Shown: positions 1,781 through 23,046, numbered from the stretch's first letter. The stretch is DNA of 25,566 nt from a virus (IMGVR_UViG_3300042340_000144), one strand, 5' to 3'. Made by a program: numbers and translations. Notes: generated by a model from the sequence alone, not told the origin.

Positions 1781-2965
1781 TTACAACCAAACTATATATT
1801 CTAAGTAACATTGTTCTTCTCTATAAACAATGATTTCACTGTTTAATAAACCATTACCAGCTTCAACAAAAGTACTATCATATCCTCTTTGCTTTAACTG
1901 GTCATAAGTTAATTCAAAAGAATTACCTCTATACCAGCCCTTATAAACATAAGGATTACCAACAAATACTTTATATATTAGTAACACCTTATCATTATCA
2001 TAACCAGTATATCCTAATGATTTACTAGTAACTTCAGAGAAGTAGTTTCCATCTCCGTAAATTTTCCCAGAAAAGTTAAAGTTACCACTGGGTCTTATCT
2101 TTAAACCTTGTTCAATAATAGGTATAACAGAACTACATCTAGTCCCATGTATTAAATGTCTATGACCTTTTGTAATGTCTTTATTATTACTTTCTAAGTA
2201 GTTATAATACTTTTGTTTATGTTTATCAATATCAACTTTAAACAGGCCTTTAATCCTACTTCCAAGTTGTTTAGTTATATAACTAATATCATTTGGATAG
2301 TCTTTAATAACTTGTATAGATATATTTAAAGTAGATGCAATAGTATTAACAATAGGTTGTTTATCACAAGTCTCAATATCACTATTAACATCTTCTATAA
2401 CTTGTGATGCTAAAGCATCTAACTTATCTTGTTCTTGTTCTACAAGTTTATTTAAAGATATATTAGGCAATAAGTAATCTTGTACTTTCCTCATATATCT
2501 AGGAATAACTGTATATAACTTTAACAGTAAATCATTAACATATTGTATATCATATTCCTCACCAACTTGGGCCAAATCATTAATATAAAGTTGAGCCTGT
2601 TCTAGCTGTCTTCTAGTAACTTGAGTAGCTTTAACACTATAAGTAGTAGATACAAGACCGTCTCTATAATCCATCATCTTCTTTAAAAAGATATCATATA
2701 GTTCTTGTGTATATACAATGTTATTAGTTACATTATTAATATCCTTAACAACTGCTACAAACTCAGTAACATCTTTATAACCCTTCTTTAACTTACTTTT
2801 AATTAAAGAATTCCATTGATGTAAGGGTTTAGTTATCTCAATACATGAACTATCAACTCTACCATATTTAACCTGTATACATTCACTTGTTTCTTGCATC
2901 TCATAGTACTTATTATGATTATCTTCAGTTGTCATAACAAGTCTACAAAATCTATAATTAGTCAT
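1781..2965 (-). CDS. Poly(ADP-ribose) polymerase-like protein (WGR + helical regulatory + catalytic domains)
   Basis: WGR-like NHNKYYEMQ...VKYGRV. Regulatory-domain-like LEQAQLYINDL...LYTVIP...EQEQDKLDAL. Catalytic H-Y-E triad in LIHGT, GKIYGDGNYF...SKSLGY and NSEIIVY. Confidence 0.9.
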   Translation of the reverse strand: MTNYRFCRLVMTTEDNHNKYYEMQETSECIQVKYGRVDSSCIEITKPLHQWNSLIKSKLKKGYKDVTEFVAVVKDINNVTNNIVYTQELYDIFLKKMMDYRDGLVSTTYSVKATQVTRRQLEQAQLYINDLAQVGEEYDIQYVNDLLLKLYTVIPRYMRKVQDYLLPNISLNKLVEQEQDKLDALASQVIEDVNSDIETCDKQPIVNTIASTLNISIQVIKDYPNDISYITKQLGSRIKGLFKVDIDKHKQKYYNYLESNNKDITKGHRHLIHGTRCSSVIPIIEQGLKIRPSGNFNFSGKIYGDGNYFSEVTSKSLGYTGYDNDKVLLIYKVFVGNPYVYKGWYRGNSFELTYDQLKQRGYDSTFVEAGNGLLNSEIIVYREEQCYLEYIVWL

Positions 2966-2982
2966 ATTAATACACTTTATAA

Positions 2983-3375
2983 TTATTTAAATAAGCTTGT
3001 ATTAACATTACAAACATTAGTTGCTAATACAAAAGATAAAGGATGTAATTCCTGTTCTGTTACACTCTTTAAAATATCTACAGCAGTATAAAAATCAGCA
3101 CTATTATACTTACTAAAATTCAAAGGATCTAGCCAAATAATATTAACTTTAATATTAACACTATCTTCTATAAAACTAAACTCTTTACTCTTCCAACTAT
3201 TAATTGTAGTTACATCATTTAAACAATCTTTTAATACATCCCAAGTATTTTCAAAGTCATCTGAAATCTTTAATAGGCCCTTAATTTGAGCCAAAAAAGA
3301 AGCTTTATCAAATGTCTTTGCACCATCCAATACAAGATAAATGTTATTAGAATCTTCTGTATTTATCCCTGTCAT
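2983..3375 (-). CDS. Barstar-family (RNase inhibitor fold) protein
   Basis: YLVLDGAKTFDKASFLAQIKGLLKISDDFENTWDVLKDCLND follows the barstar pattern. Start moved to ATG 3375 (MTGINT), which removes the overlap with the upstream ORF. Confidence 0.7.
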   Translation of the reverse strand: MTGINTEDSNNIYLVLDGAKTFDKASFLAQIKGLLKISDDFENTWDVLKDCLNDVTTINSWKSKEFSFIEDSVNIKVNIIWLDPLNFSKYNSADFYTAVDILKSVTEQELHPLSFVLATNVCNVNTSLFK

Positions 3376-3376
3376 A

Positions 3377-3589
3377 TTATGCCTTTTGTTTCTTTTTCCT
3401 AATATAGGTTCTAGTTTCAATAAGATCCAGTTGTTGCAATTCTGCAATAGCTTTATTAGCTTCATTAGGAGTAAGCCTACAACTTACAGCTTGATTAATT
3501 ACATCAATATACTTGCTTGTACTATAAAGACTGTAGTATAAAATAGCAGCCTCTTTACTTAGTAATTGATCAGTTAGTGTTATTCCCAA
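3377..3589 (-). CDS. Small hypothetical protein, possible winged-HTH
   Basis: 70 aa with TTG start (uncertain). LTPNEANKAIAELQQLDLI resembles a wHTH recognition helix. Confidence 0.4.
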   Translation of the reverse strand: MGITLTDQLLSKEAAILYYSLYSTSKYIDVINQAVSCRLTPNEANKAIAELQQLDLIETRTYIRKKKQKA

Positions 3590-6766: not shown

Positions 6767-6899
6767 GTCTCTTGTAATATCTTATGTTTATAACTGATGA
6801 AATTCAACACTTTATCTCTAATAATGATCCCAACACATGTAAAAGATTTTATACAAAATTATGTAAGTTATTGTTTAAGAATAAGATACTACAAGAGAC
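6767..6899. repeat. 19-bp inverted repeat (1 mismatch) whose left arm covers the HNH start codon
   Basis: GTCTCTTGTAATATCTTAT (6767-6785) versus ATAAGATACTACAAGAGAC (6881-6899). Confidence 0.75.
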
Positions 6900-7119
6900 T
6901 AATTATAGATGTATATACTGTAATGGTTTAGCTACAACATTAGATCATATTATAGCTGGTGGTCAGACTCTTCAAAGTAACTTAGTTGGTGCTTGTGAAA
7001 CATGTAATAAGAGTAAAGGAACTACTTATTGGAGAGTATGGTTTAAAGCTCAACCTAGTTACAATGAAGCTAGTGAGAAGTATATTTGCAGTAAGTTAAA
7101 TACTAATAAAATACTTTAA
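6784..7119 (+). CDS. HNH endonuclease (McrA-like, Zn-binding)
   Basis: CIYC...TLDHII...NLVGACETCNKSKG. Antisense to its neighbours. Confidence 0.88.
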   Translation: MFITDEIQHFISNNDPNTCKRFYTKLCKLLFKNKILQETNYRCIYCNGLATTLDHIIAGGQTLQSNLVGACETCNKSKGTTYWRVWFKAQPSYNEASEKYICSKLNTNKIL

Positions 7120-8114
7120 TTCTTATCCACAAAATCAACAACACCCAGCCCTTTACAATGAGGACAATCAACTAAAGGCTTGTTTATTTCTGTTATTAAA
7201 TCATTCAAATATTTATCAATGTTATCCTTTAAATCCTGCAAAGAATTACCTTTAAAAGGAGTTACAACTGTGTGTTTCTCATAAGGTTTAGGGCAACATT
7301 CAAACACAGTAACAGTTCTTTTATCTCTATACTTAGTAACAGTTTTAGGTTTAGTTTTCCTCTTACTAAAGAGATTAGATTCAGTAAATTGATATGACTG
7401 AGGAGCCTCAAGCATTATATTCTTTGTAACTCTTAAACAGAAGTTATAGTCAGTTAGAGTGGCCCATTTACCATTAATATGTTGCTTAATATAAGATCTA
7501 ATAATACCATATGTATGCTCAGCAGATAAGCAACAAGGAGTGTTATCAATAAACATGTCAGGCGTTGTTAGTTCATTAATTAGTTGATATTCAACTGACT
7601 TATCTGTTATTCTAATTGTTCTTGTATCATATGATCCAGCTTCTAAACAAGCATAATTAAAACTACTTACATCATTAGGTTCAACTAAATCACAATCATA
7701 CTTAGCTATTACATCTAAATGAAACTTAATGTCTTCTAACTGTGCAGGTTCTACATCCCAATTTTCTTTGTATAAACTAAACACATCTTCAAACTCAGGT
7801 CTAGCAACCCAACCTTCTCCATCATTAGGATAGTATGCAAATTCATCCCTACTATATACTTTAGGTAAATCAAAAGTAACAGTTTCTTTTAATTCATATC
7901 TATGATTAATAGTCTTTACATAACCTTGCTGACTAATAGTAGTTGGCACCTTATCTAACTTATACCAATCCTTCTTACAAGATGGCTGAGCTTTTACACC
8001 ATCAAAGAATAGATTAGCTACATAATGACTATGACTAACATAAACATAGGACTCTGCATTTGCTATAAAACAACCATCATTAAACACCACAACTTTAAAC
8101 TTAATAGCGCTCAT
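7116..8114 (-). CDS. Hypothetical phage protein with C-terminal CxxCxGxG motif
   Basis: 332 aa ending CPHCKGLG. Confidence 0.75.
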   Translation of the reverse strand: MSAIKFKVVVFNDGCFIANAESYVYVSHSHYVANLFFDGVKAQPSCKKDWYKLDKVPTTISQQGYVKTINHRYELKETVTFDLPKVYSRDEFAYYPNDGEGWVARPEFEDVFSLYKENWDVEPAQLEDIKFHLDVIAKYDCDLVEPNDVSSFNYACLEAGSYDTRTIRITDKSVEYQLINELTTPDMFIDNTPCCLSAEHTYGIIRSYIKQHINGKWATLTDYNFCLRVTKNIMLEAPQSYQFTESNLFSKRKTKPKTVTKYRDKRTVTVFECCPKPYEKHTVVTPFKGNSLQDLKDNIDKYLNDLITEINKPLVDCPHCKGLGVVDFVDKN

Positions 8115-8827: not shown

Positions 8828-9138
8828 ATTATTACTTGTATTACATTGCATAACTTGGTATTTGATCTAAACCTGGAACACCTCTTAGATCTATACAACT
8901 AGTAGCAAATATTGGAGATGGTGGTAATTCTTGCCAATAAGTATTAACCGGATATTTTTCATGTATGCTATACCAACAACTACTATTAGGAGATGTTATA
9001 TGCCAATACTGTTTCTCATACTCTTCATACCAAGCTACATATACCTCACCTTGATACCATAATAAAATACGACTGCCTTCTTCAGGAGCATTATCAACTG
9101 TTTTCCAACCATTCAAATCTTTTACATTACTCATATTA
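8811..9138. repeat. Perfect 21-bp direct repeat spanning the start codons of two adjacent genes
   Basis: TCTTTTACATTACTCATATTA at 8811-8831 and 9118-9138. Both genes begin MSNVK. Confidence 0.85.
8841..9134 (-). CDS. DUF551-like phage protein
   Basis: GWKTVDNAPEEG.RILLW...TYWQELPPSP. Start moved to ATG 9134. Confidence 0.7.
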   Translation of the reverse strand: MSNVKDLNGWKTVDNAPEEGSRILLWYQGEVYVAWYEEYEKQYWHITSPNSSCWYSIHEKYPVNTYWQELPPSPIFATSCIDLRGVPGLDQIPSYAM

Positions 9139-9148
9139 CTTAAAACAA

Positions 9149-9622
9149 ATGATACCTTATTATAAAACAAAACAATTTAGAAACTATTTAAACATATTCT
9201 TATTAGTAGTTTACTCACATCTATTTGAACATGTAGCACAGATGTTTGAGTTACATGTATTACATTGGACAAGACCACAATCATTAGGCTTATTGGGTCT
9301 TATATGGCCTTGGGTTATACATAGTGAATACTTACATTATGGACATGCTTTATTTATGTTAGTTGGTATATACTATTTAAATAAAAACATGCATAATAGA
9401 AGCTCTTATTTCTGGATGAATATAACTTTAGTATTAGCTTTTTATCATCACTTTGAACATTTTTTATTATTAATACAATCAATTAGTCATGTTTACTTCT
9501 TTGATAAAACAATACCAACAAGCATAGGACAACTGTTTATTCCTAGAATAGAACTGCACTTTATATATAACTTTATGGTCGGTATACCTATGATGATTGC
9601 ATTAAATAAAAACAAAAGTTAG
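9149..9622 (+). CDS. Four-TM membrane protein with duplicated HxxEH / ExLH motifs (DUF6008-like, tentative)
   Basis: SHLFEHVAQ...HSEYLH...YHHFEH...RIELHFIYN. Start moved from 8993 to ATG 9149 to avoid overlap with the DUF551 gene. Confidence 0.7.
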   Translation: MIPYYKTKQFRNYLNIFLLVVYSHLFEHVAQMFELHVLHWTRPQSLGLLGLIWPWVIHSEYLHYGHALFMLVGIYYLNKNMHNRSSYFWMNITLVLAFYHHFEHFLLLIQSISHVYFFDKTIPTSIGQLFIPRIELHFIYNFMVGIPMMIALNKNKS

Positions 9623-13575: not shown

Positions 13576-14091
13576 TTAAAGTTCTTTTCTTCTTTGATTT
13601 AATATATCTTCTAAAAGTACAGGAGTATAATTTATTTGTTCTACAGATACATTTATATATCTTCTATCAGAAAGACAGTTAGAATGAAGGTGACCTGAAA
13701 CATTTATCCAGCCTTCTTTTAAGCATTCAGAATGAATAGGTATATGAGTTAGTATAACCTTTAAACCTGGAAATGCTCTAGCTCCACATACTTTATCAAA
13801 GCCAGCTTCCAAGTATAACCTAGTATCAAATATGTCATGATTTCCAGATACCAAGCGCTTATGACCATTAAGTTGTTTTACTAACTCTAAATACTCCTTC
13901 TTAATAACTACATCACCTAGATGATATACATGATCTTCTGGTTTAACCGTGTTATTCCAATTAGTAATCATAGTATTGTTTAACTCTTCTACAGTGTTAA
14001 ATGGTCTTAGTTTATTACCTTCACTATCTGTCCACTTTAAACTATTTTCATGACCAAAATGAGTGTCACTAATTACATATATCTTAACCAT
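13576..14091 (-). CDS. Calcineurin-like metallophosphoesterase
   Basis: SDTHFGH, HLGDV, SGNHD, THIP, GHLH. AGGA Shine-Dalgarno. Confidence 0.92.
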   Translation of the reverse strand: MVKIYVISDTHFGHENSLKWTDSEGNKLRPFNTVEELNNTMITNWNNTVKPEDHVYHLGDVVIKKEYLELVKQLNGHKRLVSGNHDIFDTRLYLEAGFDKVCGARAFPGLKVILTHIPIHSECLKEGWINVSGHLHSNCLSDRRYINVSVEQINYTPVLLEDILNQRRKEL

Positions 14092-14113
14092 TTTATTTAA
14101 TCCTTATATTATC

Positions 14114-14151
14114 TACTACTGTTATAACAAGACATAATTATAACAGTAGTA
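14114..14151. promoter_or_regulatory. 14-bp palindrome containing a minus-strand extended -10 (TGTTATAAT)
   Basis: TACTACTGTTATAA / TTATAACAGTAGTA with a 10-nt loop. The extended -10 is at 14137-14145. No U-tract. Confidence 0.55.
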
Positions 14152-14160
14152 AAAACTTAT

Positions 14161-15327
14161 TTATAATACATGAGCAAAGGATAAAAACTTATTATTAAAC
14201 TTTGATAATGAATAATACAGAGTTTCTTTTAACAAATATAAAGTAATTGGCTCTTCAGATGTAAGTTTTTGTTTACTCTCTAAAGAAGTATATTGATAAT
14301 TAACAGTAATACTAAGTTTGTTCTTGTTAATGATTTTAACATTAAGATTAGTATAAGCTAGATCAAAATAAACATCTTCTGCTTTATTAATATCCTCATT
14401 TATTAGTGCCAATTTTTCAACAAAAGTATTATTAAACAATGTATACATGTCACCATTTTTAAACAGCACTTTATCCTTCTTAACAGATATAGAATATGTA
14501 TCACAATCATCTTCAACTTGATTATTATGCTCATCACAAACATAGAATTCATCATATAAATTAAACTCAATGTTTAACATATTAATAAGTTCTTCTACGT
14601 TGGTATCGCTAAACAAGTTGGTAGTTTTAATAATTTGAAGAGTGTTATCAAGAGACAAAACAGGAATACCAACAATAGTATCAATCAAATCTTCTTTGTC
14701 TTCTCTAGTAGATAACTTATAAACAAGTTGTCTTACTTCAACTTCTTCTAAGGAGCCAAAAGTCTTTCTCCACAATACTCTAGACAATCTATCAATGAGA
14801 GGATTACTAAATTTGTTATTGGCCTTCTCATTACCAATAAGTATAAACAATTGTTTGTTGTTAGTAGAACCATCTAACCACTCTAATAAAGCAACACTAG
14901 TCTCATCCTCTAACTTCTTTTCATACTCATCAATGAATATAACAAAGTTGTTGAATACATCACTACCAATAACATCTTTCCAAGCTGGCTTATTAATAAT
15001 GTTTAGATCTTGTATATACAAAATAGGTAAACCACTATCAAGTGCTAACTTATGGGCTCTTTTAGTTTTGCCACTACCTTTTAAACCTAAATACAAAACA
15101 CCTAAACTTTTAGTACTATTGTTAAATGATTTAAGTACATAATCCTCAAATTTGTCTAACAAATAATACTCATCTAAGTATTTAAAGTCATTAGTTCTAG
15201 TTAAATATATACCTCTCATATCACTATATTTAGGTATATAAACACCAATAGGAACAGAAGATACAGTATGAACCGCAGAATTAAAATCAATACTATTATC
15301 TGAATTAATGTAAGTTTGTAATGTCAT
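14161..15327 (-). CDS. AAA+ ATPase
   Basis: Walker A GLKGSGKT, Walker B FVIFIDE and LIDRLSR. The start abuts the Hen1 stop (TAAATG). Confidence 0.88.
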   Translation of the reverse strand: MTLQTYINSDNSIDFNSAVHTVSSVPIGVYIPKYSDMRGIYLTRTNDFKYLDEYYLLDKFEDYVLKSFNNSTKSLGVLYLGLKGSGKTKRAHKLALDSGLPILYIQDLNIINKPAWKDVIGSDVFNNFVIFIDEYEKKLEDETSVALLEWLDGSTNNKQLFILIGNEKANNKFSNPLIDRLSRVLWRKTFGSLEEVEVRQLVYKLSTREDKEDLIDTIVGIPVLSLDNTLQIIKTTNLFSDTNVEELINMLNIEFNLYDEFYVCDEHNNQVEDDCDTYSISVKKDKVLFKNGDMYTLFNNTFVEKLALINEDINKAEDVYFDLAYTNLNVKIINKNKLSITVNYQYTSLESKQKLTSEEPITLYLLKETLYYSLSKFNNKFLSFAHVL

Positions 15328-16527
15328 TTATAAATCCTTAAATTCTATATTTTTATATAATGTCATAGGGCAGTTATTAACTGAATCACCCCAATTAATA
15401 CTATCTCCTGGTAATGTATTAAATTCATTTTGTGTAAATTCATATAGATGATCTTCGTATCTAACATCATTTGGCCCTAAATTAAAATACATATTAAAGT
15501 CTTTATTTGGAGTACTAATAAGTATTTGTTTAACATGCTTATTTAATACTAATGTTTCTAGCAATAACATTGCTACATCTTTTTCAATATGTTCTATAAA
15601 CTCTATTAAAAGCACCGTTGTAGGCTCTGTTAGTTGTTCTAATGCAGTATTCCAATTACTATAAAAAGAAGCTTCTACACCTAAATACTCAGTCTTAGAT
15701 TTAGCTTTTGCTAATACATTCTCATCAACATCAATACCAATGTATTTAATAGCTTTACTAACTTTAATATACTTACCAGGACCACAGCCAATGTCTATTA
15801 CACTATTTCTATACTTAATATGAGTAGACACAAACGCAAATCTTTGCTGTTCATTTCTACCAATATTACTTAGGTTAATGCTCTCATTGTTTAATAATGG
15901 CACCACTTTTTTAGACATATTATCTTCAAGAATGCCTCTAAATCTATGCCTTACTATAAAAGGAATATTGTCATTCTTATTAATAATATTTGCATAAACA
16001 TTAACTTGATCAAGAGTTAGATAACTTACATTATCTTTAATAAGTTGCATAAATAGGATTAAAGCTGTATATCTTAAAGCATCAATTAAACTACCATTAT
16101 TAGTAACATTTAACTGTACTAAGTTACAGTTATCAGCTATTAAATAATATGTAATGTTAAAGTTTTCTGTATTAAAAATACTTAAATGCTTTACATCAAC
16201 ATCTAAACATTCAATGGTTATAGTATTTAAAGAAGGTCCTTTTTCATATTTATTATTACTATCTTTTTTAATACAATCAAATAAGGTTGTTAGTACTGTT
16301 AAAGCTGATTCAGCAGAGCAATAACCTCTATATACTAAATAATTACCTTCTTTCTCAAATGAGTCTTGACCAACTCCTTCTTCAAAGATAGCCATATATG
16401 TTAAAGGTGTAACATACTTACCTACCACAAAACCTTTTCTACAATCTCTAATAAGAAGTCCACTATTAGGGTTCTTATTAAGAATGTAACTTAAATTAGA
16501 ATCACTAGAATTAACTTTAATTATCAT
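15328..16527 (-). CDS. hen1: Hen1-type RNA 3'-terminal 2'-O-methyltransferase
   Basis: SAM motif VIDIGCGPG, metal motif IEFIEH, STPNKDFN and RYEDHLYEFT. The N-terminal NLSYILNKNP resembles the bacterial Hen1 ligase-activating domain. Confidence 0.85.
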   Translation of the reverse strand: MIIKVNSSDSNLSYILNKNPNSGLLIRDCRKGFVVGKYVTPLTYMAIFEEGVGQDSFEKEGNYLVYRGYCSAESALTVLTTLFDCIKKDSNNKYEKGPSLNTITIECLDVDVKHLSIFNTENFNITYYLIADNCNLVQLNVTNNGSLIDALRYTALILFMQLIKDNVSYLTLDQVNVYANIINKNDNIPFIVRHRFRGILEDNMSKKVVPLLNNESINLSNIGRNEQQRFAFVSTHIKYRNSVIDIGCGPGKYIKVSKAIKYIGIDVDENVLAKAKSKTEYLGVEASFYSNWNTALEQLTEPTTVLLIEFIEHIEKDVAMLLLETLVLNKHVKQILISTPNKDFNMYFNLGPNDVRYEDHLYEFTQNEFNTLPGDSINWGDSVNNCPMTLYKNIEFKDL

Positions 16528-16564
16528 ATTAATACTTGTTTATTAATTATAAAAACATACTTAT

Positions 16565-16622
16565 AAATATAAGTTAATTATAATTACAACCTTATGTGTA
16601 TAACTATAATTAACTTATATTT
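16565..16622. promoter_or_regulatory. 18-bp perfect intergenic palindrome upstream of hen1
   Basis: AAATATAAGTTAATTATA (16565-16582) / TATAATTAACTTATATTT (16605-16622). Contains minus-strand TATAAT. Confidence 0.6.
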
Positions 16623-16631
16623 ATTTACTTA

Positions 16632-16871
16632 TTATTTACCAAATAAGTTACTAATCCAACCACCTGATTTATTAGCTGTATCATCATCAATTTGTTCTAA
16701 ATCTACATTAGGCACTTCATCTATTCCTTCATGTAAATCACTGCTTAAACTATGAACATCATATGTAGTAAGTACAGCTTCTAATTTATCTGGTTCTGAC
16801 ACATAATACACAGACTCAGACTCTCTACCTTCTTTATCATGATCAATTACTTTTGCTTTCCAAAATGGCAT
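16632..16871 (-). CDS. 79-aa acidic protein with C-terminal amphipathic tail, between pnkp and hen1
   Basis: AGGAG Shine-Dalgarno, 18 Asp/Glu, ends SGGWISNLFGK. Confidence 0.7.
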   Translation of the reverse strand: MPFWKAKVIDHDKEGRESESVYYVSEPDKLEAVLTTYDVHSLSSDLHEGIDEVPNVDLEQIDDDTANKSGGWISNLFGK

Positions 16872-16896
16872 AACTTTATTTCTCCTTTATTATTAT

Positions 16897-19359
16897 TTAT
16901 AATCTTGGATCTAGTCCTTGTTCTTTCTTCAATTCAAACATGAGTTTAATTAAAGTATTAGCATACTCTTTATTAGTATCATTAAAGTCAGATGAGTGAA
17001 TGTCTAATAAAGAATTACCTAATTGCCATTCATTAATACTCACTTTAAGTTTACCTTTAATACTTTTTTTATCAATAAACTTATGTAGTATAGAAGTATA
17101 ATCATGACCATATACTAGTCTTAAATAATCTACATTTCTAACTTTAATGTAAGGGGCTTGTCCTTCAACATTGTAGTAGGGTTTAACAACAACACCTTCT
17201 AAATGACTGTATAGATTTTGTACCCTAATAGCTTCTGTTAAGTCATTAACATTAACTACATGTAAGGGTGTATTTAATAAACTTAATAACTCATAGTTAT
17301 TAAACTTGTTAAACTCACTATTACTATAAAGAATCTTATCTTCAGACTCAACTTTAAGTATGTTAAAAGGCATAAAATAGGGTACTTCATTAGAACTATA
17401 TTTATCTAGTTCTAAACCAAATGTATTTAGATTATTTAAATTATTAGTGTTCTTCCAATGATTAAAATTATTAACTTGTTTATTAGGTAAACTAAATTTA
17501 TTAATATAATCATCACTAACTTTAAAGGCTTCTAAATCATTATAAAAACCATGTTTAATCATAGTTTCAATGTGTAACTTATGACTATAATAATAAGCTT
17601 CAAAAGTGTTTTGAATTAATCCTTTACCAAGATATGACCAGGGCATTAACTCACAATCTAACAACACTGAAGTATATGATCCTAATGAATTAATCCAAGC
17701 TATCAACTCATCAGATACACTATTTTCTAACACATCTATAGCAGCATCTAATTCAGGTGTTTGTTTAAGTTTAAAACCATTTCTAGTAAATACTTTATAA
17801 CCCTCCCTAGATACTTCTACTTGTGCTCTGCTTCCCATATATTTAGGCTGTATTAGTACTTGAGTTTGACCCATAGCTGCATAATAGGATAAAACAGTTT
17901 TAATGTCTTCTAAAGTACTTTCAGTCTTATCAGCAGGACACATAGTACCACTAATATAAGGCACTTTATTTCTGATAAAACTATTTAATTTTCTAGTATC
18001 CTCATCATCCAACTTAACTTCTAAATCCTCTACTGGATACTTAAACTTAGTAATATGTTCAAGTTGTTTAAGATTATCATCTAATAAAGACTTAACAGTA
18101 ATAAACTTTTTACTACTAACATTATAACCAGTTAATACATTACCATAGCCAACACCAGTATCTAAACCAATAGAATATTTAGTTTTGATATGCCTGTCAA
18201 AAGTTAAATGACCATACAAGTGAAGAGGCCAACAACTATTATAATGTTTATCATTATAAATACTATTAATTAGATCACACTTTTCTTCAGTCTTATAATA
18301 CAAGTTAGTCATCTTATCAAGACTAGTTAACAAGTACTTACTCTTACAGGGTGCATGAGTAACAATAAATCCTTGACCTCTAATACTAGAATAACTTCTA
18401 TTATAGAGTTCAATAAACTTATCTCTATAACTAAGAGAAATATTTACTAAAAATCTAGAATTAAAGTATTTATTATTCTCCATAAAAGAACTAAATTCAA
18501 TAGCTTCTAGTTCTTCTTGAGGAATGTTTTCAATCTTACTTATATACTTAAATAAATTCTCCTCGTGGTTACCTTTAAGAAGCAAGATTTGAGGATTAGC
18601 AAGTAAATAATCAATAATTCTTTCATTGTAATGTGCTGATTTATTAAGCATTGGATCTTTAACATCAATCCAATCACCAACTAAAATTGGCACATTATGT
18701 TCATCTTTAATGTTATTAATAAGCTGCTTTAACTCATTAACACAACCATGAACATCACCAATAACAGTATAATTATTACCTTCTACAATTAAGTTATTCT
18801 TATTTTCAATATAAGTAACATTAACACTATCAATCCTTTCAGTTATAGTTATAACTTTATGATAATCACTTCTTCTAAGATTACTTAATACATGCTTCTT
18901 AAGCTTATCAATATGCTTAGTAATAACATATTTATCACCACCATCATTAGCAAACCAATCTTGTCTATTCTTATAATCAAATAAAATACAAACAACCTTA
19001 TAATTATGATCTCTACAAATATTTATAATATCAGTTCTAAATTGATCATTTAAACCAGTACTATCAATGATTACATGAGGTACATTTACAGGATAACTGA
19101 TGTAATTCCTAAGTTTAGCATAAAGGAGATTAAAAGCTTGTTGTGAAACTTCCAACATCCTAGAACTGTACTTATCTGCATCAATGTCAGATATTAAATC
19201 TCTTCTAATACCATCACTTGATAATACCCTACAATCAACATTAGACTTAAGTAATTGGTAATGTAATTGTTTAGCTAATGTGGATTTCCCAGCATTAGAG
19301 GGTGCAATTAACAGATAAACAGTATAATCTTCGCATACAATATTAAATGACTTGGTCAT
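16897..19359 (-). CDS. pnkp: Polynucleotide kinase-phosphatase-ligase (bacterial Pnkp architecture)
   Basis: Kinase APSNAGKST. Phosphoesterase GDVHGC, GDWID, GNHE, YGH, LDTG. Ligase QPKYMGSR, DCELMPW, EGVVVKP, IKVR and C-terminal DPRL. Confidence 0.92.
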   Translation of the reverse strand: MTKSFNIVCEDYTVYLLIAPSNAGKSTLAKQLHYQLLKSNVDCRVLSSDGIRRDLISDIDADKYSSRMLEVSQQAFNLLYAKLRNYISYPVNVPHVIIDSTGLNDQFRTDIINICRDHNYKVVCILFDYKNRQDWFANDGGDKYVITKHIDKLKKHVLSNLRRSDYHKVITITERIDSVNVTYIENKNNLIVEGNNYTVIGDVHGCVNELKQLINNIKDEHNVPILVGDWIDVKDPMLNKSAHYNERIIDYLLANPQILLLKGNHEENLFKYISKIENIPQEELEAIEFSSFMENNKYFNSRFLVNISLSYRDKFIELYNRSYSSIRGQGFIVTHAPCKSKYLLTSLDKMTNLYYKTEEKCDLINSIYNDKHYNSCWPLHLYGHLTFDRHIKTKYSIGLDTGVGYGNVLTGYNVSSKKFITVKSLLDDNLKQLEHITKFKYPVEDLEVKLDDEDTRKLNSFIRNKVPYISGTMCPADKTESTLEDIKTVLSYYAAMGQTQVLIQPKYMGSRAQVEVSREGYKVFTRNGFKLKQTPELDAAIDVLENSVSDELIAWINSLGSYTSVLLDCELMPWSYLGKGLIQNTFEAYYYSHKLHIETMIKHGFYNDLEAFKVSDDYINKFSLPNKQVNNFNHWKNTNNLNNLNTFGLELDKYSSNEVPYFMPFNILKVESEDKILYSNSEFNKFNNYELLSLLNTPLHVVNVNDLTEAIRVQNLYSHLEGVVVKPYYNVEGQAPYIKVRNVDYLRLVYGHDYTSILHKFIDKKSIKGKLKVSINEWQLGNSLLDIHSSDFNDTNKEYANTLIKLMFELKKEQGLDPRL

Positions 19360-19394: not shown

Positions 19395-19442
19395 ATAAAC
19401 AAAAGGACTAAATAATGTAATATACTTAGTCCTTTTGTTTAT
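19395..19442. terminator. Likely bidirectional terminator hairpin
   Basis: 17-bp perfect inverted repeat ATAAACAAAAGGACTAA / TTAGTCCTTTTGTTTAT with a 14-nt loop. Confidence 0.7.
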
Positions 19443-19930: not shown

Positions 19931-20296
19931 CTAATTAGATTGTAGTTTTAGCAATTCATCTTCTTTGAATACAGCAGTGTATAAAGTTCTACCTTCATCA
20001 TCACAGAATTCAACTTCATATACATTATTATCCTTACCAAGTAGTTCAACCACAGTACCAATATGTCCTGCTTTAATACCACTAATAACAACAACTGTAT
20101 CAGTGATTTCATACTTACTTGTGACTTCAAATAGATCCATAATCTTATTAACAATAGGAATATCAAACCCATCTTTAACAATTTGAAGTTGGCCAAAGTT
20201 AGCCATATTCTGATACTTTTGGCCCTTTTCTAAACCAAATGCTTTATAGTCTTCTTTGACTACAACCCAACAATCTTTACTAAATCCAATAGTCAT
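19931..20296 (-). CDS. DUF4926-like SH3-fold protein, paralogue 2
   Basis: GHIGTVVELL...YEVEFCDDEGRT. Confidence 0.7.
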   Translation of the reverse strand: MTIGFSKDCWVVVKEDYKAFGLEKGQKYQNMANFGQLQIVKDGFDIPIVNKIMDLFEVTSKYEITDTVVVISGIKAGHIGTVVELLGKDNNVYEVEFCDDEGRTLYTAVFKEDELLKLQSN

Positions 20297-20338: not shown

Positions 20339-20743
20339 TTAGTTAAAGCGTAATTTTAATAAATAAGTTTCTTCAATAGTATCTTGATATAAAGTTTTAC
20401 CCTCTTCATCGCAGAACTCTACTTTATAGTTAGCATAAGTATGATCTTGATTAGGAAGTACTTCAACTATTGTACCAACCTGCCCAATAGGTATAATTTT
20501 ACCATTAGCATCAGTCCAATCACCAACTGTAATTGTTACTACATCAGTAATCTCATACTTACTACTAAGTTCAAAGAAGTCTTTATTTAGACCTAGTATT
20601 TCACCAGCATAGTAAATTTGAATCTGATTATTCCAACTCCAACCAGCAGTGCTATGAACCTTGTACTTTTGGCCCAATTTAAGCCAATAACCATCTTCTT
20701 TTACAACTTTAACTATGCAATCTTTTACTATTTGTTTATCCAT
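20339..20743 (-). CDS. DUF4926-like SH3-fold protein, paralogue 1
   Basis: GQVGTIVEVL...YKVEFCDEEGKT. Shares GQKY and SKYEITD with the neighbour. Confidence 0.7.
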   Translation of the reverse strand: MDKQIVKDCIVKVVKEDGYWLKLGQKYKVHSTAGWSWNNQIQIYYAGEILGLNKDFFELSSKYEITDVVTITVGDWTDANGKIIPIGQVGTIVEVLPNQDHTYANYKVEFCDEEGKTLYQDTIEETYLLKLRFN

Positions 20744-20785
20744 AAATTACCTATTTGTTTATGTATTTAATAAGCTTTAAATGTA

Positions 20786-20824
20786 AATGTAGTAGTTATA
20801 AACATAATCTATAACTACTACATT
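20786..20824. promoter_or_regulatory. 15-bp perfect intergenic palindrome (terminator, processing site or operator)
   Basis: AATGTAGTAGTTATA / TATAACTACTACATT with loop AACATAATC. Confidence 0.6.
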
Positions 20825-20829
20825 ATAAC

Positions 20830-23046
20830 TTAAAACTTAACTCTTACAGTCCTTTTAAAGCTACCCTCAACTTTAACAATAAGAGTTTCTTTACTATCAT
20901 CAGTAAAGCCTAGACCTGCTAGTTGTTTAGTAGTTGGTTCTAACTTATCAGTCATACCATAAATCTCTAACACCTTTCTATGTGCCAGAAGCTCACCATT
21001 CAAGTTCTCAATGTGAAAAGATCTCATTGGACTATCTGAATGACATCCTTCTAAGAAGAAGAAATAGTGCTTATTACCAATCTTATTATCTCCCCAATAA
21101 TTAGGAGATAGTGAGATTAGATTTACTTTGTGGAATTGATTAGAATCAAGACCCCACATAGTATTACTAGTAGCACCAACAGGTTCTAAGCGATGTTCAA
21201 TTGACCATTGACCATCACTTAGAGTAACAGTAGCAACATCAACCCATTCTTTATGACCAGTAGCAGGATAAATGTATTCATACAACTCGCCATTAAAAGC
21301 AATCTCAGCTTTACCTCTACCCCAACTATGTCTCTTATTCCAGTTGTGAATCATACATCTATATTTACCATCTTTTAATTTATTCATAGATGGAAATGTA
21401 ATATTCTCAACAGGGATATAGCCAGCAGGAGCAGCGCTTGTATAATCTACATCTTGCACACCACCACTTGTAGGATCATTTCTTCTATTCCAACCAACTC
21501 TATTACCACTAGTACTATAAGTGTCACAAAATTTACTAGTACCATAAGTGTCACAAAATTTACTAGTTGGTCCACTATTACCAGGCATAAACACATGCAA
21601 ATCCATAAGACTATCATTAGGTTCTAGTTCATTCCAACTATGTGTAAATCTAAAGACACCATCAACTCTACCACCTTTACTAATAACTGCTTGTGTTAGA
21701 TTACTCTTACCAGCTAAGTTACCATTATAAGTCCAACTGAACATATTATCATTCCACTTAAAAGGATTTTTACAAGTAGGATCAATTGCAGTTGTTAGAG
21801 TTACTAGATTATTGCCAAAGCCATTTTCTAAGAACACTTGAATAGACTTACTATTAGGTAAGATGTCTTTAATAAAAGTTTGTATATCAACAGTTTGGAT
21901 CTCATCAAACTCTGCTTTCTTATGTCTACTTAAAGTGCCACCATTACTACTCTTTACATTAGCAAATAGATTAGAAGCAGGAGCCTTCTTCTTACTAATA
22001 TTAGTATGAATCCTTTCATTAATATCAATATCATTTAAAGTTGCAAAGCGTCTTTTAAATGAATCTTCATAACCTAATTCAACAATCTTCTTAGCAGCAT
22101 TATTAATTTGTGACTGAGTAATTGGTGCTTTTGCTTTAGCATAATTAGCAGGATCAACTCTCTTATTAAACTCTTTACAAACAGTATTAATGTCTTTACC
22201 TTGAGCAAGATCAATACAAGTAGTGCCAATTAACTCATTAGCAAAACCAGCAAAAGGAATATCACTAAACCTCTTCCAAGTCCAGTTATTTTTGCTTAAA
22301 GTAGAACCTTGTAACTCATCATATTCTTGTTTAATATTAATAAACTCATCTACTTTATACTTGTACAAATCAGCTCTTAATAAAGAACCTTGTGCCATCA
22401 ATTCACTAACAACTTGTAGTGTTTCTAGTGGAATGTTTAAACCCTTAACAAACACTTGATGAGTAGCATTCCTTTTACTTAGATAAGTGCCAATAGACTC
22501 ACTCCCAGTTAATACATATTGCTTAGGCAAATTAACATAAAAGTGATGGAAGGTATATACTTTATTTGTAGTTACCACACCATACTTAGCAACTTCTTCT
22601 GGTGTATAAACCTTAGTAGATAATTTATAACCAAGTTGATAAAGCTCAGCATTCTTTTTAATCTTTTCATAAGGTTGTTTTACTAAATTGTTATATTCAA
22701 TAGCAAATACACTAGTAATTGGTGCTACTTTTAAAGCATTGTTTACAGCAGTAACAGAATTATAATAAGAGCTACCTTCAACATCAATATCAAACATTGT
22801 AACAATGTTATTATCATCATCTACAGCAACAATATTGCCATAAGTTTTAATAAAGTGCTTATCCCTATTACAATTGTTACTACTACTATTAGGATCTCTA
22901 AAGATAGGATTATCTTGTGGTGCAAATGAATTTAAATATAAATCCCACAAAGTATCACCACTAACAGATGATACAAATAGTTTTCCATTCTTACACATTA
23001 GAGCAAATTGCTCTTTAATTAAACTTGCAAATTCTTCAAATAACAT
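20830..23046 (-). CDS. Large conserved phage protein of unknown function
   Basis: 738 aa. LWDLYLNSF, VDPANY, FSWTYNG, DLHV...DVD...PVENI resemble a widespread phage hypothetical family (from recall). Confidence 0.8.
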   Translation of the reverse strand: MLFEEFASLIKEQFALMCKNGKLFVSSVSGDTLWDLYLNSFAPQDNPIFRDPNSSSNNCNRDKHFIKTYGNIVAVDDDNNIVTMFDIDVEGSSYYNSVTAVNNALKVAPITSVFAIEYNNLVKQPYEKIKKNAELYQLGYKLSTKVYTPEEVAKYGVVTTNKVYTFHHFYVNLPKQYVLTGSESIGTYLSKRNATHQVFVKGLNIPLETLQVVSELMAQGSLLRADLYKYKVDEFINIKQEYDELQGSTLSKNNWTWKRFSDIPFAGFANELIGTTCIDLAQGKDINTVCKEFNKRVDPANYAKAKAPITQSQINNAAKKIVELGYEDSFKRRFATLNDIDINERIHTNISKKKAPASNLFANVKSSNGGTLSRHKKAEFDEIQTVDIQTFIKDILPNSKSIQVFLENGFGNNLVTLTTAIDPTCKNPFKWNDNMFSWTYNGNLAGKSNLTQAVISKGGRVDGVFRFTHSWNELEPNDSLMDLHVFMPGNSGPTSKFCDTYGTSKFCDTYSTSGNRVGWNRRNDPTSGGVQDVDYTSAAPAGYIPVENITFPSMNKLKDGKYRCMIHNWNKRHSWGRGKAEIAFNGELYEYIYPATGHKEWVDVATVTLSDGQWSIEHRLEPVGATSNTMWGLDSNQFHKVNLISLSPNYWGDNKIGNKHYFFFLEGCHSDSPMRSFHIENLNGELLAHRKVLEIYGMTDKLEPTTKQLAGLGFTDDSKETLIVKVEGSFKRTVRVKF
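21508..21567. repeat. In-frame 27-bp tandem duplication
   Basis: ACTAGTAC(T/C)ATAAGTGTCACAAAATTT x2 plus ACTAGT, encoding TSKFCDTYG TSKFCDTYS. Confidence 0.9.

What the first reader, a model, noticed from the sequence alone, without database searches (positions are those of the whole stretch)
15328..19359. Phage-borne Pnkp-Hen1 RNA repair-and-immunise system
Seen: complete kinase, phosphatase and ligase motifs in Pnkp, and SAM, metal and FN motifs in Hen1. Established: bacterial Pnkp-Hen1 heals and religates ribotoxin-cut RNA and 2'-O-methylates the junction so it cannot be recut, whereas T4 Pnk/Rnl1 repair without methylation. Inference: a phage counter-defence that permanently protects tRNA or rRNA from host anticodon nucleases and RNase toxins (PrrC/RloC, PARIS, HEPN or TA types). 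This is the best-supported system-level signal in the window.
Basis: partly seen in the sequence, partly recalled or inferred. Interest (0 to 1): 0.8.

Follow-up and report, generated by a model that had tools for sequence, protein, structure and literature searches.

The report
Lake phage RNA repair-and-methylate gene pair
A large lake phage, probably of cyanobacteria, carries two intact genes predicted to rejoin cut RNAs such as tRNAs and methylate the joint against re-cutting; this is a divergent version of a known bacterial system, already noted once in a phage, and its end-cleaning enzyme lacks one residue the studied version needs.

Summary
The gene pair is real: pnkp (16897-19359, minus strand, kinase-metallophosphoesterase-ligase) and hen1 (15328-16527), intact and under purifying selection. 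The window is phage DNA: 21 of 34 genes are collinear with an IMG/VR contig that carries a terminase; it and a sister contig carry tail genes, and their closest cultured phages are Microcystis/Microcoleus cyanomyoviruses.

It is not the classical Clostridium/Anabaena system. Ligase and Hen1 belong to the Capnocytophaga Rnl-Hen1 branch, fused here to a Clostridium-type kinase-phosphoesterase. The same layout occurs in 19 other viral contigs and 11 Bacillota genomes.

'Complete motifs' is overstated. The phosphoesterase lacks Arg237 (present in 74/74 classical copies, 0/31 in this lineage), whose loss abolishes monoesterase activity in CthPnkp. The kinase lacks the lid arginines. So the step that frees the 2'-OH for methylation is uncertain.

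Counter-defence is plausible but untested; RloC and PARIS fit poorly as targets. A phage Pnkp/Hen1 was noted in XacN1 (2018), and this scan has found such pairs repeatedly on other DNA. Verdict: new variant of a known kind, moderate interest.

The parts
16897..19359 (-). pnkp, 820 aa: 5' kinase, metallophosphoesterase and RNA ligase in one chain
18835..19359 (-). Polynucleotide 5'-kinase domain (aa 1-175); P-loop APSNAGKST, D49, R52, D99, T101 kept; lid arginines absent
   Evidence: dN/dS 0.26-0.35
19279..19305 (-). P-loop codons. Relatives L001 and L189 have a group I-like intron with a LAGLIDADG ORF between G24 and K25 (window 19288|19287); the window has no intron
18085..18777 (-). Binuclear metallophosphoesterase domain (aa 195-425); 8 of 9 CthPnkp-essential residues; Val233 (18661-18663) at the Arg237 position, invariant Lys234 next to it
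   Evidence: (top fold match 4j6o)
16897..18015 (-). RNA ligase domain (aa 449-820), Capnocytophaga Rnl type; adenylated lysine K506; insertion region about aa 583-638 predicted to bind Hen1
15328..16527 (-). hen1, 399 aa: ligase-activating N-terminal domain (Hen1_N) plus 3'-terminal 2'-O-methyltransferase
15883..16527 (-). Hen1 N-terminal ligase-activating domain, Capnocytophaga type; the most conserved part with the ligase (dN/dS 0.14-0.15)
15328..15864 (-). Hen1 methyltransferase domain; SAM loop, E309/E312/H313/H360, R229, R356, FNxxF; Tyr357 lineage-specific
16632..16871 (-). 79-aa acidic ORF between the genes; not part of the system (two in-frame stops in L001, deleted in L003)
16563..16624 (.). 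24-bp inverted repeat (96%) just before hen1, kept in L001 and L003; one of several intergenic hairpins, probably a transcription signal
19395..19442 (-). 20-bp terminator-like hairpin upstream of pnkp, also present in L001; probably ends the upstream transcription unit

Best explanation
A phage-encoded two-protein RNA repair complex that works like bacterial Pnkp-Hen1 but belongs to its sister (Rnl-Hen1) branch. Inferred mechanism, none of it assayed: a host metal-independent RNase (HEPN/PrrC-type, Csx1/Csm6-type, toxin-antitoxin or colicin-like) cuts a tRNA or other RNA to 5'-OH and 2',3'-cyclic phosphate. The kinase phosphorylates the 5' end. The metallophosphoesterase opens the cyclic phosphate to a 2'-phosphate and removes it, using the conserved lysine or other clade-specific residues in place of Arg237, perhaps slowly or with help from another phosphatase. 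Hen1's N-domain clamps the ligase insertion region and switches the ligase on; its methyltransferase 2'-O-methylates the 3' nucleotide before sealing, so the joint resists the same nuclease. This keeps translation running during infection, most likely of a freshwater cyanobacterium. Shown here: genes, domains, residues, phylogenetic placement, purifying selection, phage context. Predicted: the ligase-Hen1 interface. Inferred: activities, substrate, host and the counter-defence role.
For: Domain and residue conservation. Best PDB matches are CgiRnl (E 8e-41, against 9e-12 for the Cth ligase) and CgiHen1 over the full length (E 4e-20); that complex ligates and methylates colicin D-cut tRNA in vitro. 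The phosphoesterase model (pLDDT 92) has the CthPnkp phosphatase 4j6o as top fold match. Ligase plus Hen1-N complex prediction: score 0.85, best of 3 controls 0.00; the mark was reached by 58 of 80 solved complexes and 2 of 110 mismatched pairs; runs agree in at least 86% of contacts, partner pLDDT at least 83. A like complex is solved (4XRP/4XRU), so this shows likeness, not binding. The modelled contacts fall at the insertion region and the C-terminus, the two sites described for CgiRnl-Hen1. All five domains have dN/dS 0.14-0.42 against two relatives. pnkp then hen1 is kept in every relative opened, while flanking genes come and go. Intact Hen1 methyltransferases sit beside Arg237-lacking phosphoesterases in 15 of 19 viral and 10 of 11 bacterial sister loci, which argues that a free 2'-OH is produced somehow. 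Relatives carry tRNA genes; the window also encodes Gad1 and a barstar-like protein.
Against: Arg237 is absent; in CthPnkp, R237A/K/Q abolish the Mn-dependent monoesterase step, and the intermediate is a 2'-phosphate that would block Hen1. No HAD_PNKP or Tpt1 was found to supply that step in two partial relatives (genomes 51-64% complete, and the HAD search had no positive control). Kinase lid arginines are missing by alignment. In vivo substrates of even the bacterial complexes are unknown. No host is assigned; the cyanophage link rests on 28-34% identities. A hairpin separates the two genes, so co-transcription is not shown.
Confidence: 0.66

Rival explanations
1. Rerouted repair: the phosphoesterase is a cyclic phosphodiesterase only. 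It leaves 3'-OH/2'-phosphate ends, which are either sealed with the 2'-phosphate in place (itself blocking re-cleavage) or cleaned by a host or unlinked enzyme before Hen1 acts.
For: At the Arg237 column, classical copies have R in 74/74, the sister clade K in 93%, and the window lineage S/T/V/I/Y in all 31. R237K also loses monoesterase activity while raising cyclic phosphodiesterase kcat 3-fold. Diesterase-only relatives such as MJ0936 and Mre11 lack this arginine. His265, the cyclic-phosphodiesterase determinant, is invariant. CthPnkp-H189D shows one substitution can reroute repair to 2'-phosphate ends.
Against: The Hen1 methyltransferase keeps its whole catalytic set under purifying selection and needs a 2'-OH. 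The ligase is closest to CgiRnl, which seals 2'-OH/2'-OMe ends. The sister clade has its own conserved residues near the metal site (P337/C338, H380, invariant K234 and R302 in this lineage) that could compensate. Mutant data from one enzyme need not transfer to a domain with under 20% structural-alignment identity.
Confidence: 0.14
2. Housekeeping for the phage, not counter-defence: the pair processes or protects phage RNAs (phage tRNAs, intron products, 3' ends) or repairs stress-damaged RNA in a light-exposed host.
For: Relatives carry several tRNAs, introns and a photolyase. The in vivo substrate of Pnkp-Hen1 is unknown and specificity is broad. The pair looks fixed in this lineage rather than patchy.
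Against: Cultured Ma-LMM01-like relatives have no match to either gene (only 5 of 50,697 phage records match the ligase), so it is not needed for this kind of phage. Methylation at the joint is most simply explained by repeated nuclease attack. T4 Pnkp/Rnl1 sets the counter-defence precedent.
Confidence: 0.13
3. Partly decayed module: kinase and/or phosphoesterase have lost activity and only ligase-Hen1 works, relying on other enzymes for end healing.
For: Lid arginines and Arg237 are missing. Kinase and phosphoesterase evolve about twice as fast as the ligase. XacN1 and RAS14 keep kinase, Hen1 and Rnl with no adjacent phosphatase, and L034 has a degenerate phosphoesterase.
Against: The substitutions are shared by about 125 sister-clade proteins from phages, giant viruses and Bacillota, and all metal ligands and essential kinase residues are 96-100% conserved. 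dN/dS is 0.26-0.35. A mobile intron targets the P-loop in two lineages, which is typical of conserved functional sites (own knowledge).
Confidence: 0.05
4. The window is a bacterial chromosome segment or prophage-free host DNA carrying an ordinary Pnkp-Hen1.
For: The sister clade does occur on Paenibacillus, Brevibacillus, Cohnella and Listeria contigs. The window itself has no clear virion gene.
Against: 21 of 34 window genes map in order onto IMG/VR contig G001. G001 carries a terminase large subunit, and its near-identical sister G002 carries portal, tail sheath and baseplate wedge. Relatives sit on contigs of 170-243 kb. The best bacterial matches are only 28-32% identical.
Confidence: 0.02

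Closest known systems
Capnocytophaga gingivalis Pnkp1-Rnl-Hen1 (Wang, Selvadurai, Huang 2015, PMC4411300; PDB 4XRP/4XRU)
   Same: Ligase and Hen1, including the Hen1_N activating domain, are of this branch (E 8e-41 and 4e-20); same predicted ligase-Hen1 interface.
   Different: Here the ligase is fused behind a kinase and a metallophosphoesterase; there is no T4-like HAD Pnkp1; two proteins rather than three; genes are adjacent; carried by a phage.
Classical bacterial Pnkp-Hen1 (Clostridium thermocellum, Anabaena variabilis; TIGR04075/TIGR04074)
   Same: Same three-domain Pnkp layout and four activities; kinase and phosphoesterase best match CthPnkp structures.
   Different: Scores far below the equivalog cut-offs (151/750; 59.5/340). 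Ligase and Hen1 fall outside the classical clade (SH-aLRT 100 in quick trees). Arg237 and lid arginines absent. Gene order is pnkp then hen1; most classical loci fetched have hen1 first.
Xanthomonas phage XacN1 ORF197/198 'PNKP and Hen1' (Yoshikawa et al. 2018, PMC5852040), with Stenotrophomonas phages CM1/RAS14 and Vibrio phages RYC and sm033
   Same: Phage-borne Rnl-type ligase plus Hen1 of the same branch (24-33% identity).
   Different: XacN1 and RAS14 have separate kinase, Hen1 and ligase genes with no adjacent phosphatase. The Vibrio phages have a ligase plus a Hen1-kinase-HAD fusion. None has the fused kinase-phosphoesterase-ligase. None was shown to function in the papers found.
Phage T4 Pnkp/Rnl1 tRNA repair
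   Same: Phage-encoded heal-and-seal logic against host RNases; RNA repair is common in jumbo phages (PMC7824862).
   Different: T4 uses a HAD phosphatase and Rnl1 and has no methyltransferase; the jumbo-phage survey does not mention Hen1.
Putative Pnkp1-Rnl-Hen1 clusters in Borg elements (PMC11208441)
   Same: The same branch carried by a large mobile element.
   Different: Archaeal extrachromosomal elements; annotation only.

Membership tests
Classical bacterial Pnkp-Hen1 (Cth/Ava) | One polypeptide with kinase, metallophosphoesterase and ligase in that order | tested here: met
Classical bacterial Pnkp-Hen1 (Cth/Ava) | Passes equivalog models TIGR04075 and TIGR04074 | tested here: not met
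   151 vs 750 bits; 59.5 vs 340 bits
Classical bacterial Pnkp-Hen1 (Cth/Ava) | Kinase residues essential per se (Lys21, Ser22, Asp38, Arg41) | tested here: met
   K25, S26, D49, R52
Classical bacterial Pnkp-Hen1 (Cth/Ava) | Kinase lid arginines (Arg120/Arg123, redundant gamma-phosphate contacts; Arg116) | tested here: not met
   R in 91-98% of classical copies; absent in the window lineage by alignment; no structure-level check of a substitute such as R132
Classical bacterial Pnkp-Hen1 (Cth/Ava) | Phosphoesterase metal ligands and His264 (D187, H189, D233, N263, H264, H323, H376, D392) | tested here: met
   D202, H204, D229, N264, H265, H335, H384, D400
Classical bacterial Pnkp-Hen1 (Cth/Ava) | Arg237, required for the monoesterase step | tested here: not met
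   Val233; 0/31 R in this lineage, 74/74 in classical copies
Classical bacterial Pnkp-Hen1 (Cth/Ava) | Ligase and Hen1 belong to the classical clade | tested here: not met
   Separated by branches of SH-aLRT 100 in quick trees, midpoint-drawn, no bootstrap
Classical bacterial Pnkp-Hen1 (Cth/Ava) | pnkp and hen1 in one operon | tested here: inconclusive
   Same strand, 369 bases apart, with a dispensable ORF and a hairpin between; contigs cannot show a transcript
Pnkp-Hen1 / Rnl-Hen1 systems in general | Ligase nucleotidyltransferase motifs I, III, IIIa, IV, V | tested here: met
   K506 in KYMGSR, ELMPW, FNILK, EGVVVKP, KVRN; core residues invariant in 32 sequences
Pnkp-Hen1 / Rnl-Hen1 systems in general | Hen1 SAM motifs and metal site (E-x-x-E-H ... 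H) | tested here: met
   DIGCGPG, GIDV, E309/E312/H313/H360, matching Arabidopsis E796/E799/H800/H860
Pnkp-Hen1 / Rnl-Hen1 systems in general | Hen1-dependent ligation with 2'-O-methylation and resistance to re-cleavage | not testable with these tools
   Needs biochemistry
Capnocytophaga Pnkp1-Rnl-Hen1 | Rnl-type ligase and Hen1_N-type Hen1 | tested here: met
   Best PDB hits 4xru_B and 4xrp_C; Pfam Hen1_N 94 bits vs cut-off 27. The Capnocytophaga sequences themselves could not be put in the trees.
Capnocytophaga Pnkp1-Rnl-Hen1 | Ligase-Hen1 N-domain interface | tested here: inconclusive
   Model supports it (0.85 vs best control 0.00; 58/80 solved, 2/110 mismatched), but a like complex is solved, so it shows likeness only
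Capnocytophaga Pnkp1-Rnl-Hen1 | Stand-alone Rnl and a separate T4-like kinase-HAD phosphatase (Pnkp1) | tested here: not met
   Ligase is fused; the phosphatase is a metallophosphoesterase
T4 Pnkp/Rnl1 | HAD phosphatase and Rnl1 ligase, no methyltransferase | tested here: not met

The most novel reading that the evidence does not exclude
The whole sister branch of fused Pnkp (phages, giant viruses, some Bacillota) has a phosphoesterase that only opens cyclic phosphates. Its Hen1-activated ligase would then either seal 2'-phosphate ends, protecting the joint with a phosphate instead of a methyl group, or work with a still unknown 2'-phosphatase. That would be a third chemistry of prokaryotic repair-with-immunity, used by cyanophages against host RNase defences.
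Probability: 0.14. Interest if true: 0.7.

Novelty: new variant of a known kind. Interest (0 to 1): 0.4.

Why it matters
The in vivo purpose of Pnkp-Hen1 has stayed unknown since its discovery. A phage-borne copy gives a direct test: does methylating repair beat RNase-based anti-phage defence better than T4-type repair? The fused sister branch has not been characterised in the papers found, and its clade-wide loss of Arg237 asks how the 2'-phosphate is removed before methylation. Against this, the concept is known, a phage example was annotated in 2018, and this scan has met the pair many times, so this copy is one more example and not a discovery of the system.

Tried and rejected
No whole genome is held for the window, so phage status was shown through collinear relatives. 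Terminase_6N search of G001/G002 was blank; PHROG scans of their ORFs then found terminase, portal, sheath and baseplate.

Rfam found nothing in the window or relatives, including the intron of L001. The intron call rests on the frame-restoring splice (U before the 5' site, terminal G), the LAGLIDADG ORF and the same site in two loci.

Searches for a 2'-phosphate-removing helper (Tpt1, HAD_PNKP) in partial relatives were blank but uninformative.

The 79-aa ORF, the AAA ATPase (14161-15327) and the stand-alone phosphoesterase (13576-14091) were considered as components and rejected as obligatory parts. The ORF is broken or deleted in relatives. The ATPase and phosphoesterase are both missing in L003 and L190, and the ATPase is deleted in a strain in run X17. 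The stand-alone phosphoesterase also lacks the arginine (GDVVIK).

Promoter scan: no excess over shuffles (38 vs 50). RNA runs X16 and X17 hold patchy contigs over pnkp and hen1, but contigs cannot show transcription; not counted as expression. The careful ligase tree did not finish; quick trees only. Burroughs and Aravind 2016 and Jain and Shuman 2011 could not be fetched, so an earlier description of this fused branch, and the role of the His replaced by Tyr357, could not be checked.


Full report
What is there. The finding's coordinates cover two minus-strand genes: an 820-aa ORF at 16897-19359 and a 399-aa ORF at 15328-16527, separated by 369 bases that hold a 79-aa ORF and a 24-bp inverted repeat. 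The first has a P-loop kinase, a metallophosphoesterase and a PNKP_ligase domain. The second has a Hen1_N domain and a class I methyltransferase. Contigs of lake run X5, which was not flagged as the source, match 14000-19068 with three differences; 14 lake or freshwater-type DNA runs hold at least 90% of the words. The sequence is therefore not an assembly artefact.

It is phage DNA. No genome is held for the window. Of 34 window genes tested, 21 map in order onto IMG/VR contig G001 at 33-90% identity. G001 encodes a terminase large subunit, DNA polymerase and ribonucleotide reductase; its near-identical sister G002 encodes portal, tail sheath and baseplate wedge. Hen1 and Pnkp relatives lie on contigs of up to 170-243 kb. 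Among cultured phages the tail sheath matches only cyanophages (Microcoleus phage My-WqHQDG and Microcystis Ma-LMM01-like phages, 32-34%), and the polymerase has the same best hits at about 28%. A freshwater cyanobacterial host is likely but inferred. G001 carries five tRNA genes (Trp, Pro, Gln, Gly, Ser); the window has none.

Which kind of Pnkp-Hen1. The ligase matches Capnocytophaga gingivalis Rnl at E 8e-41 but the Clostridium ligase at only 9e-12; Hen1 matches CgiHen1 over its whole length at 4e-20, and Clostridium/Anabaena Hen1 only in the methyltransferase. Both proteins fall far below the classical equivalog cut-offs. In quick trees of the ligase (70 rows) and the methyltransferase (50 rows), the classical sequences form one side of a long branch with SH-aLRT 100. 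The window's lineage lies on the other side, with stand-alone Rnl proteins, phage proteins and a Bacillota group. The healing half is of the Clostridium type: the kinase best matches CthPnk, and a confident model of the phosphoesterase (pLDDT 92) has 4j6o as its top fold match. So the layout is a hybrid: Clostridium-type kinase-phosphoesterase fused to a Capnocytophaga-type ligase, with a Capnocytophaga-type Hen1. The phage copy was thus not taken from the classical cyanobacterial system.

How widespread. The fused layout was found in 19 other IMG/VR loci (15 with hen1 within 6 kb; some are near-duplicates) and in 11 Bacillota genomes (Paenibacillus, Brevibacillus, Cohnella, Listeria and others; 10 with hen1), and in a Barrevirus protein. 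Five of 50,697 cultured-phage records carry the same ligase-Hen1 branch in other layouts: XacN1 and RAS14 have separate kinase, Hen1 and ligase, CM1 has the same ligase and Hen1 matches (unannotated record, not opened), and Vibrio phages RYC and sm033 have a ligase plus a Hen1-kinase-HAD fusion. Within the window's lineage the order pnkp then hen1 holds in every locus opened, while the genes between and after them vary.

Active sites. Kinase: K25, S26, D49, R52, D99 and T101 correspond to CthPnk Lys21, Ser22, Asp38, Arg41, Asp78 and Thr80. The lid arginines, 91-98% conserved in classical copies, have no counterpart by alignment in this lineage or the sister clade. Ligase: all motifs are present and invariant or nearly so. 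Hen1: the SAM loop, E309/E312/H313/H360, R229, R356 and FNxxF are kept; position 357 is Tyr/Phe in this lineage but His in 98-100% of the others compared, of unknown consequence. Phosphoesterase: eight of the nine residues essential in CthPnkp are kept. The Arg237 column has R in 74/74 classical proteins, K in 93% of 95 sister proteins, and S/T/V/I/Y in all 31 of this lineage, followed by an invariant lysine. In CthPnkp, R237A, R237K and R237Q abolish the Mn-dependent monoesterase and leave the diesterase intact, and the intermediate is a 2'-phosphate. A retained 2'-phosphate would block Hen1. This is the main open point, and it is why 'complete motifs' is only partly right.

Is it functional. 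dN/dS against two relatives is 0.26-0.35 (kinase), 0.29-0.32 (phosphoesterase), 0.15-0.18 (ligase), 0.14-0.15 (Hen1-N) and 0.33-0.42 (methyltransferase). The apparent N-terminal truncations of some relatives are caused by a group I-like intron with a LAGLIDADG ORF, inserted between Gly and Lys of the P-loop at the same site in L001 (1313 nt) and L189 (1172 nt). Removing it restores GPSNCGKS. A complex prediction of the ligase with Hen1-N scored 0.85 against 0.00 for the best of three controls (mark reached by 58 of 80 solved complexes and 2 of 110 mismatched pairs; runs agree in at least 86% of contacts; partner pLDDT at least 83). The contacts lie at the insertion region and the C-terminal DPR, as described for CgiRnl-Hen1. 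Because a like complex is solved, this shows likeness and not binding.

Mechanism. Most likely (0.66) the complex phosphorylates the 5'-OH, clears the cyclic phosphate, methylates the 2'-OH and seals, with ligation gated by Hen1, as shown in vitro for the Capnocytophaga and classical systems. The persistent coupling of an intact methyltransferase to arginine-less phosphoesterases suggests the missing step is compensated. The rivals are a diesterase-only rerouting (0.14), housekeeping RNA processing (0.13), partial decay (0.05) and a chromosomal origin (0.02). The counter-defence role is inferred from the T4 precedent, from RNA repair being common in large phages, and from the Gad1 and barstar-like genes in the same window; nothing here tests it. 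Methylation should protect only against nucleases that use the 2'-OH.

Novelty. XacN1's PNKP and Hen1 were named as a tRNA repair pair in 2018, and Borgs carry putative Pnkp1-Rnl-Hen1 clusters. I found no paper that characterises the fused sister branch or any phage copy, but the 2016 survey of RNA repair systems could not be read. This scan has reported phage Hen1-Pnkp pairs on several other genomes, including an intron-split one of what appears to be this lineage. Verdict: new variant of a known kind; interest 0.4, carried mostly by the testable counter-defence hypothesis and the Arg237 question.

Noticed in passing
L001:5777-7089 and L189:4832-6003: Group I-like intron with a LAGLIDADG ORF at the same site in the pnkp P-loop (G|K); it explains the 770-780 aa 'truncated' Pnkp entries. 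Rfam gave no match.
   Followed up: yes
window 7116-8114 (-): Gabija anti-defence protein Gad1 (Pfam 247 bits vs cut-off 27); present in L003 as a shorter ORF, absent from G001.
   Followed up: partly
window 1781-2965 (-): WGR plus PARP catalytic domain protein, conserved in relatives at 68%; a phage PARP-like ADP-ribosyltransferase.
   Followed up: partly
window 2983-3465 (-): Barstar-like protein (Pfam above cut-off) directly upstream of the PARP gene; a possible RNase inhibitor; present in L003, absent from G001.
   Followed up: no
window 14114-14151, 16563-16624, 19395-19442, 20771-20839: Long AT-rich intergenic inverted repeats at gene-block boundaries; those before pnkp and hen1 are kept in relatives.
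   Followed up: partly
window 14161-15327 (-): AAA ATPase (phrog_2376) whose start codon abuts the hen1 stop; cleanly deleted in some strains (L003, L190, run X17).
   Followed up: yes
window 13576-14091 (-): Stand-alone metallophosphoesterase (phrog_547) two genes after hen1; lacks the monoesterase arginine; missing in L003 and L190.
   Followed up: partly
window 20830-23046 (-): 738-aa phrog_1735/DUF8224 protein, with matches in 527 cultured phage records and followed by phrog_2018; function unknown; has a short tandem duplication near aa 500.
   Followed up: no
window 19931-20296 and 20339-20743 (-): Two paralogous DUF4926 proteins in tandem, variable among relatives.
   Followed up: no
window 8993-9622 (+) and 6784-7119 (+): The two long plus-strand ORFs in otherwise minus-strand DNA: a hydrophobic His-rich protein with no Pfam hit, and a small HNH-like protein; opposite-strand ORFs of similar position occur in relatives.
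   Followed up: no
L006:5992-8145 and L007:6001-8181: Vibrio phages RYC and sm033 encode a Hen1-kinase-HAD phosphatase fusion next to a stand-alone Rnl, annotated only as polynucleotide kinase: a further arrangement of the same four activities.
   Followed up: partly
L033 and L034: Giant-virus MAG contigs carry Hen1 next to an Rnl-type ligase, one with a kinase and a degenerate phosphoesterase.
   Followed up: no
L032:5971-9927: One viral contig carries a classical (DRG-type) pnkp-hen1 pair, so phages have picked up both branches.
   Followed up: partly
contig of P0069: A second RNA ligase (PF09414) lies directly upstream of pnkp in the most divergent member of this lineage.
   Followed up: no
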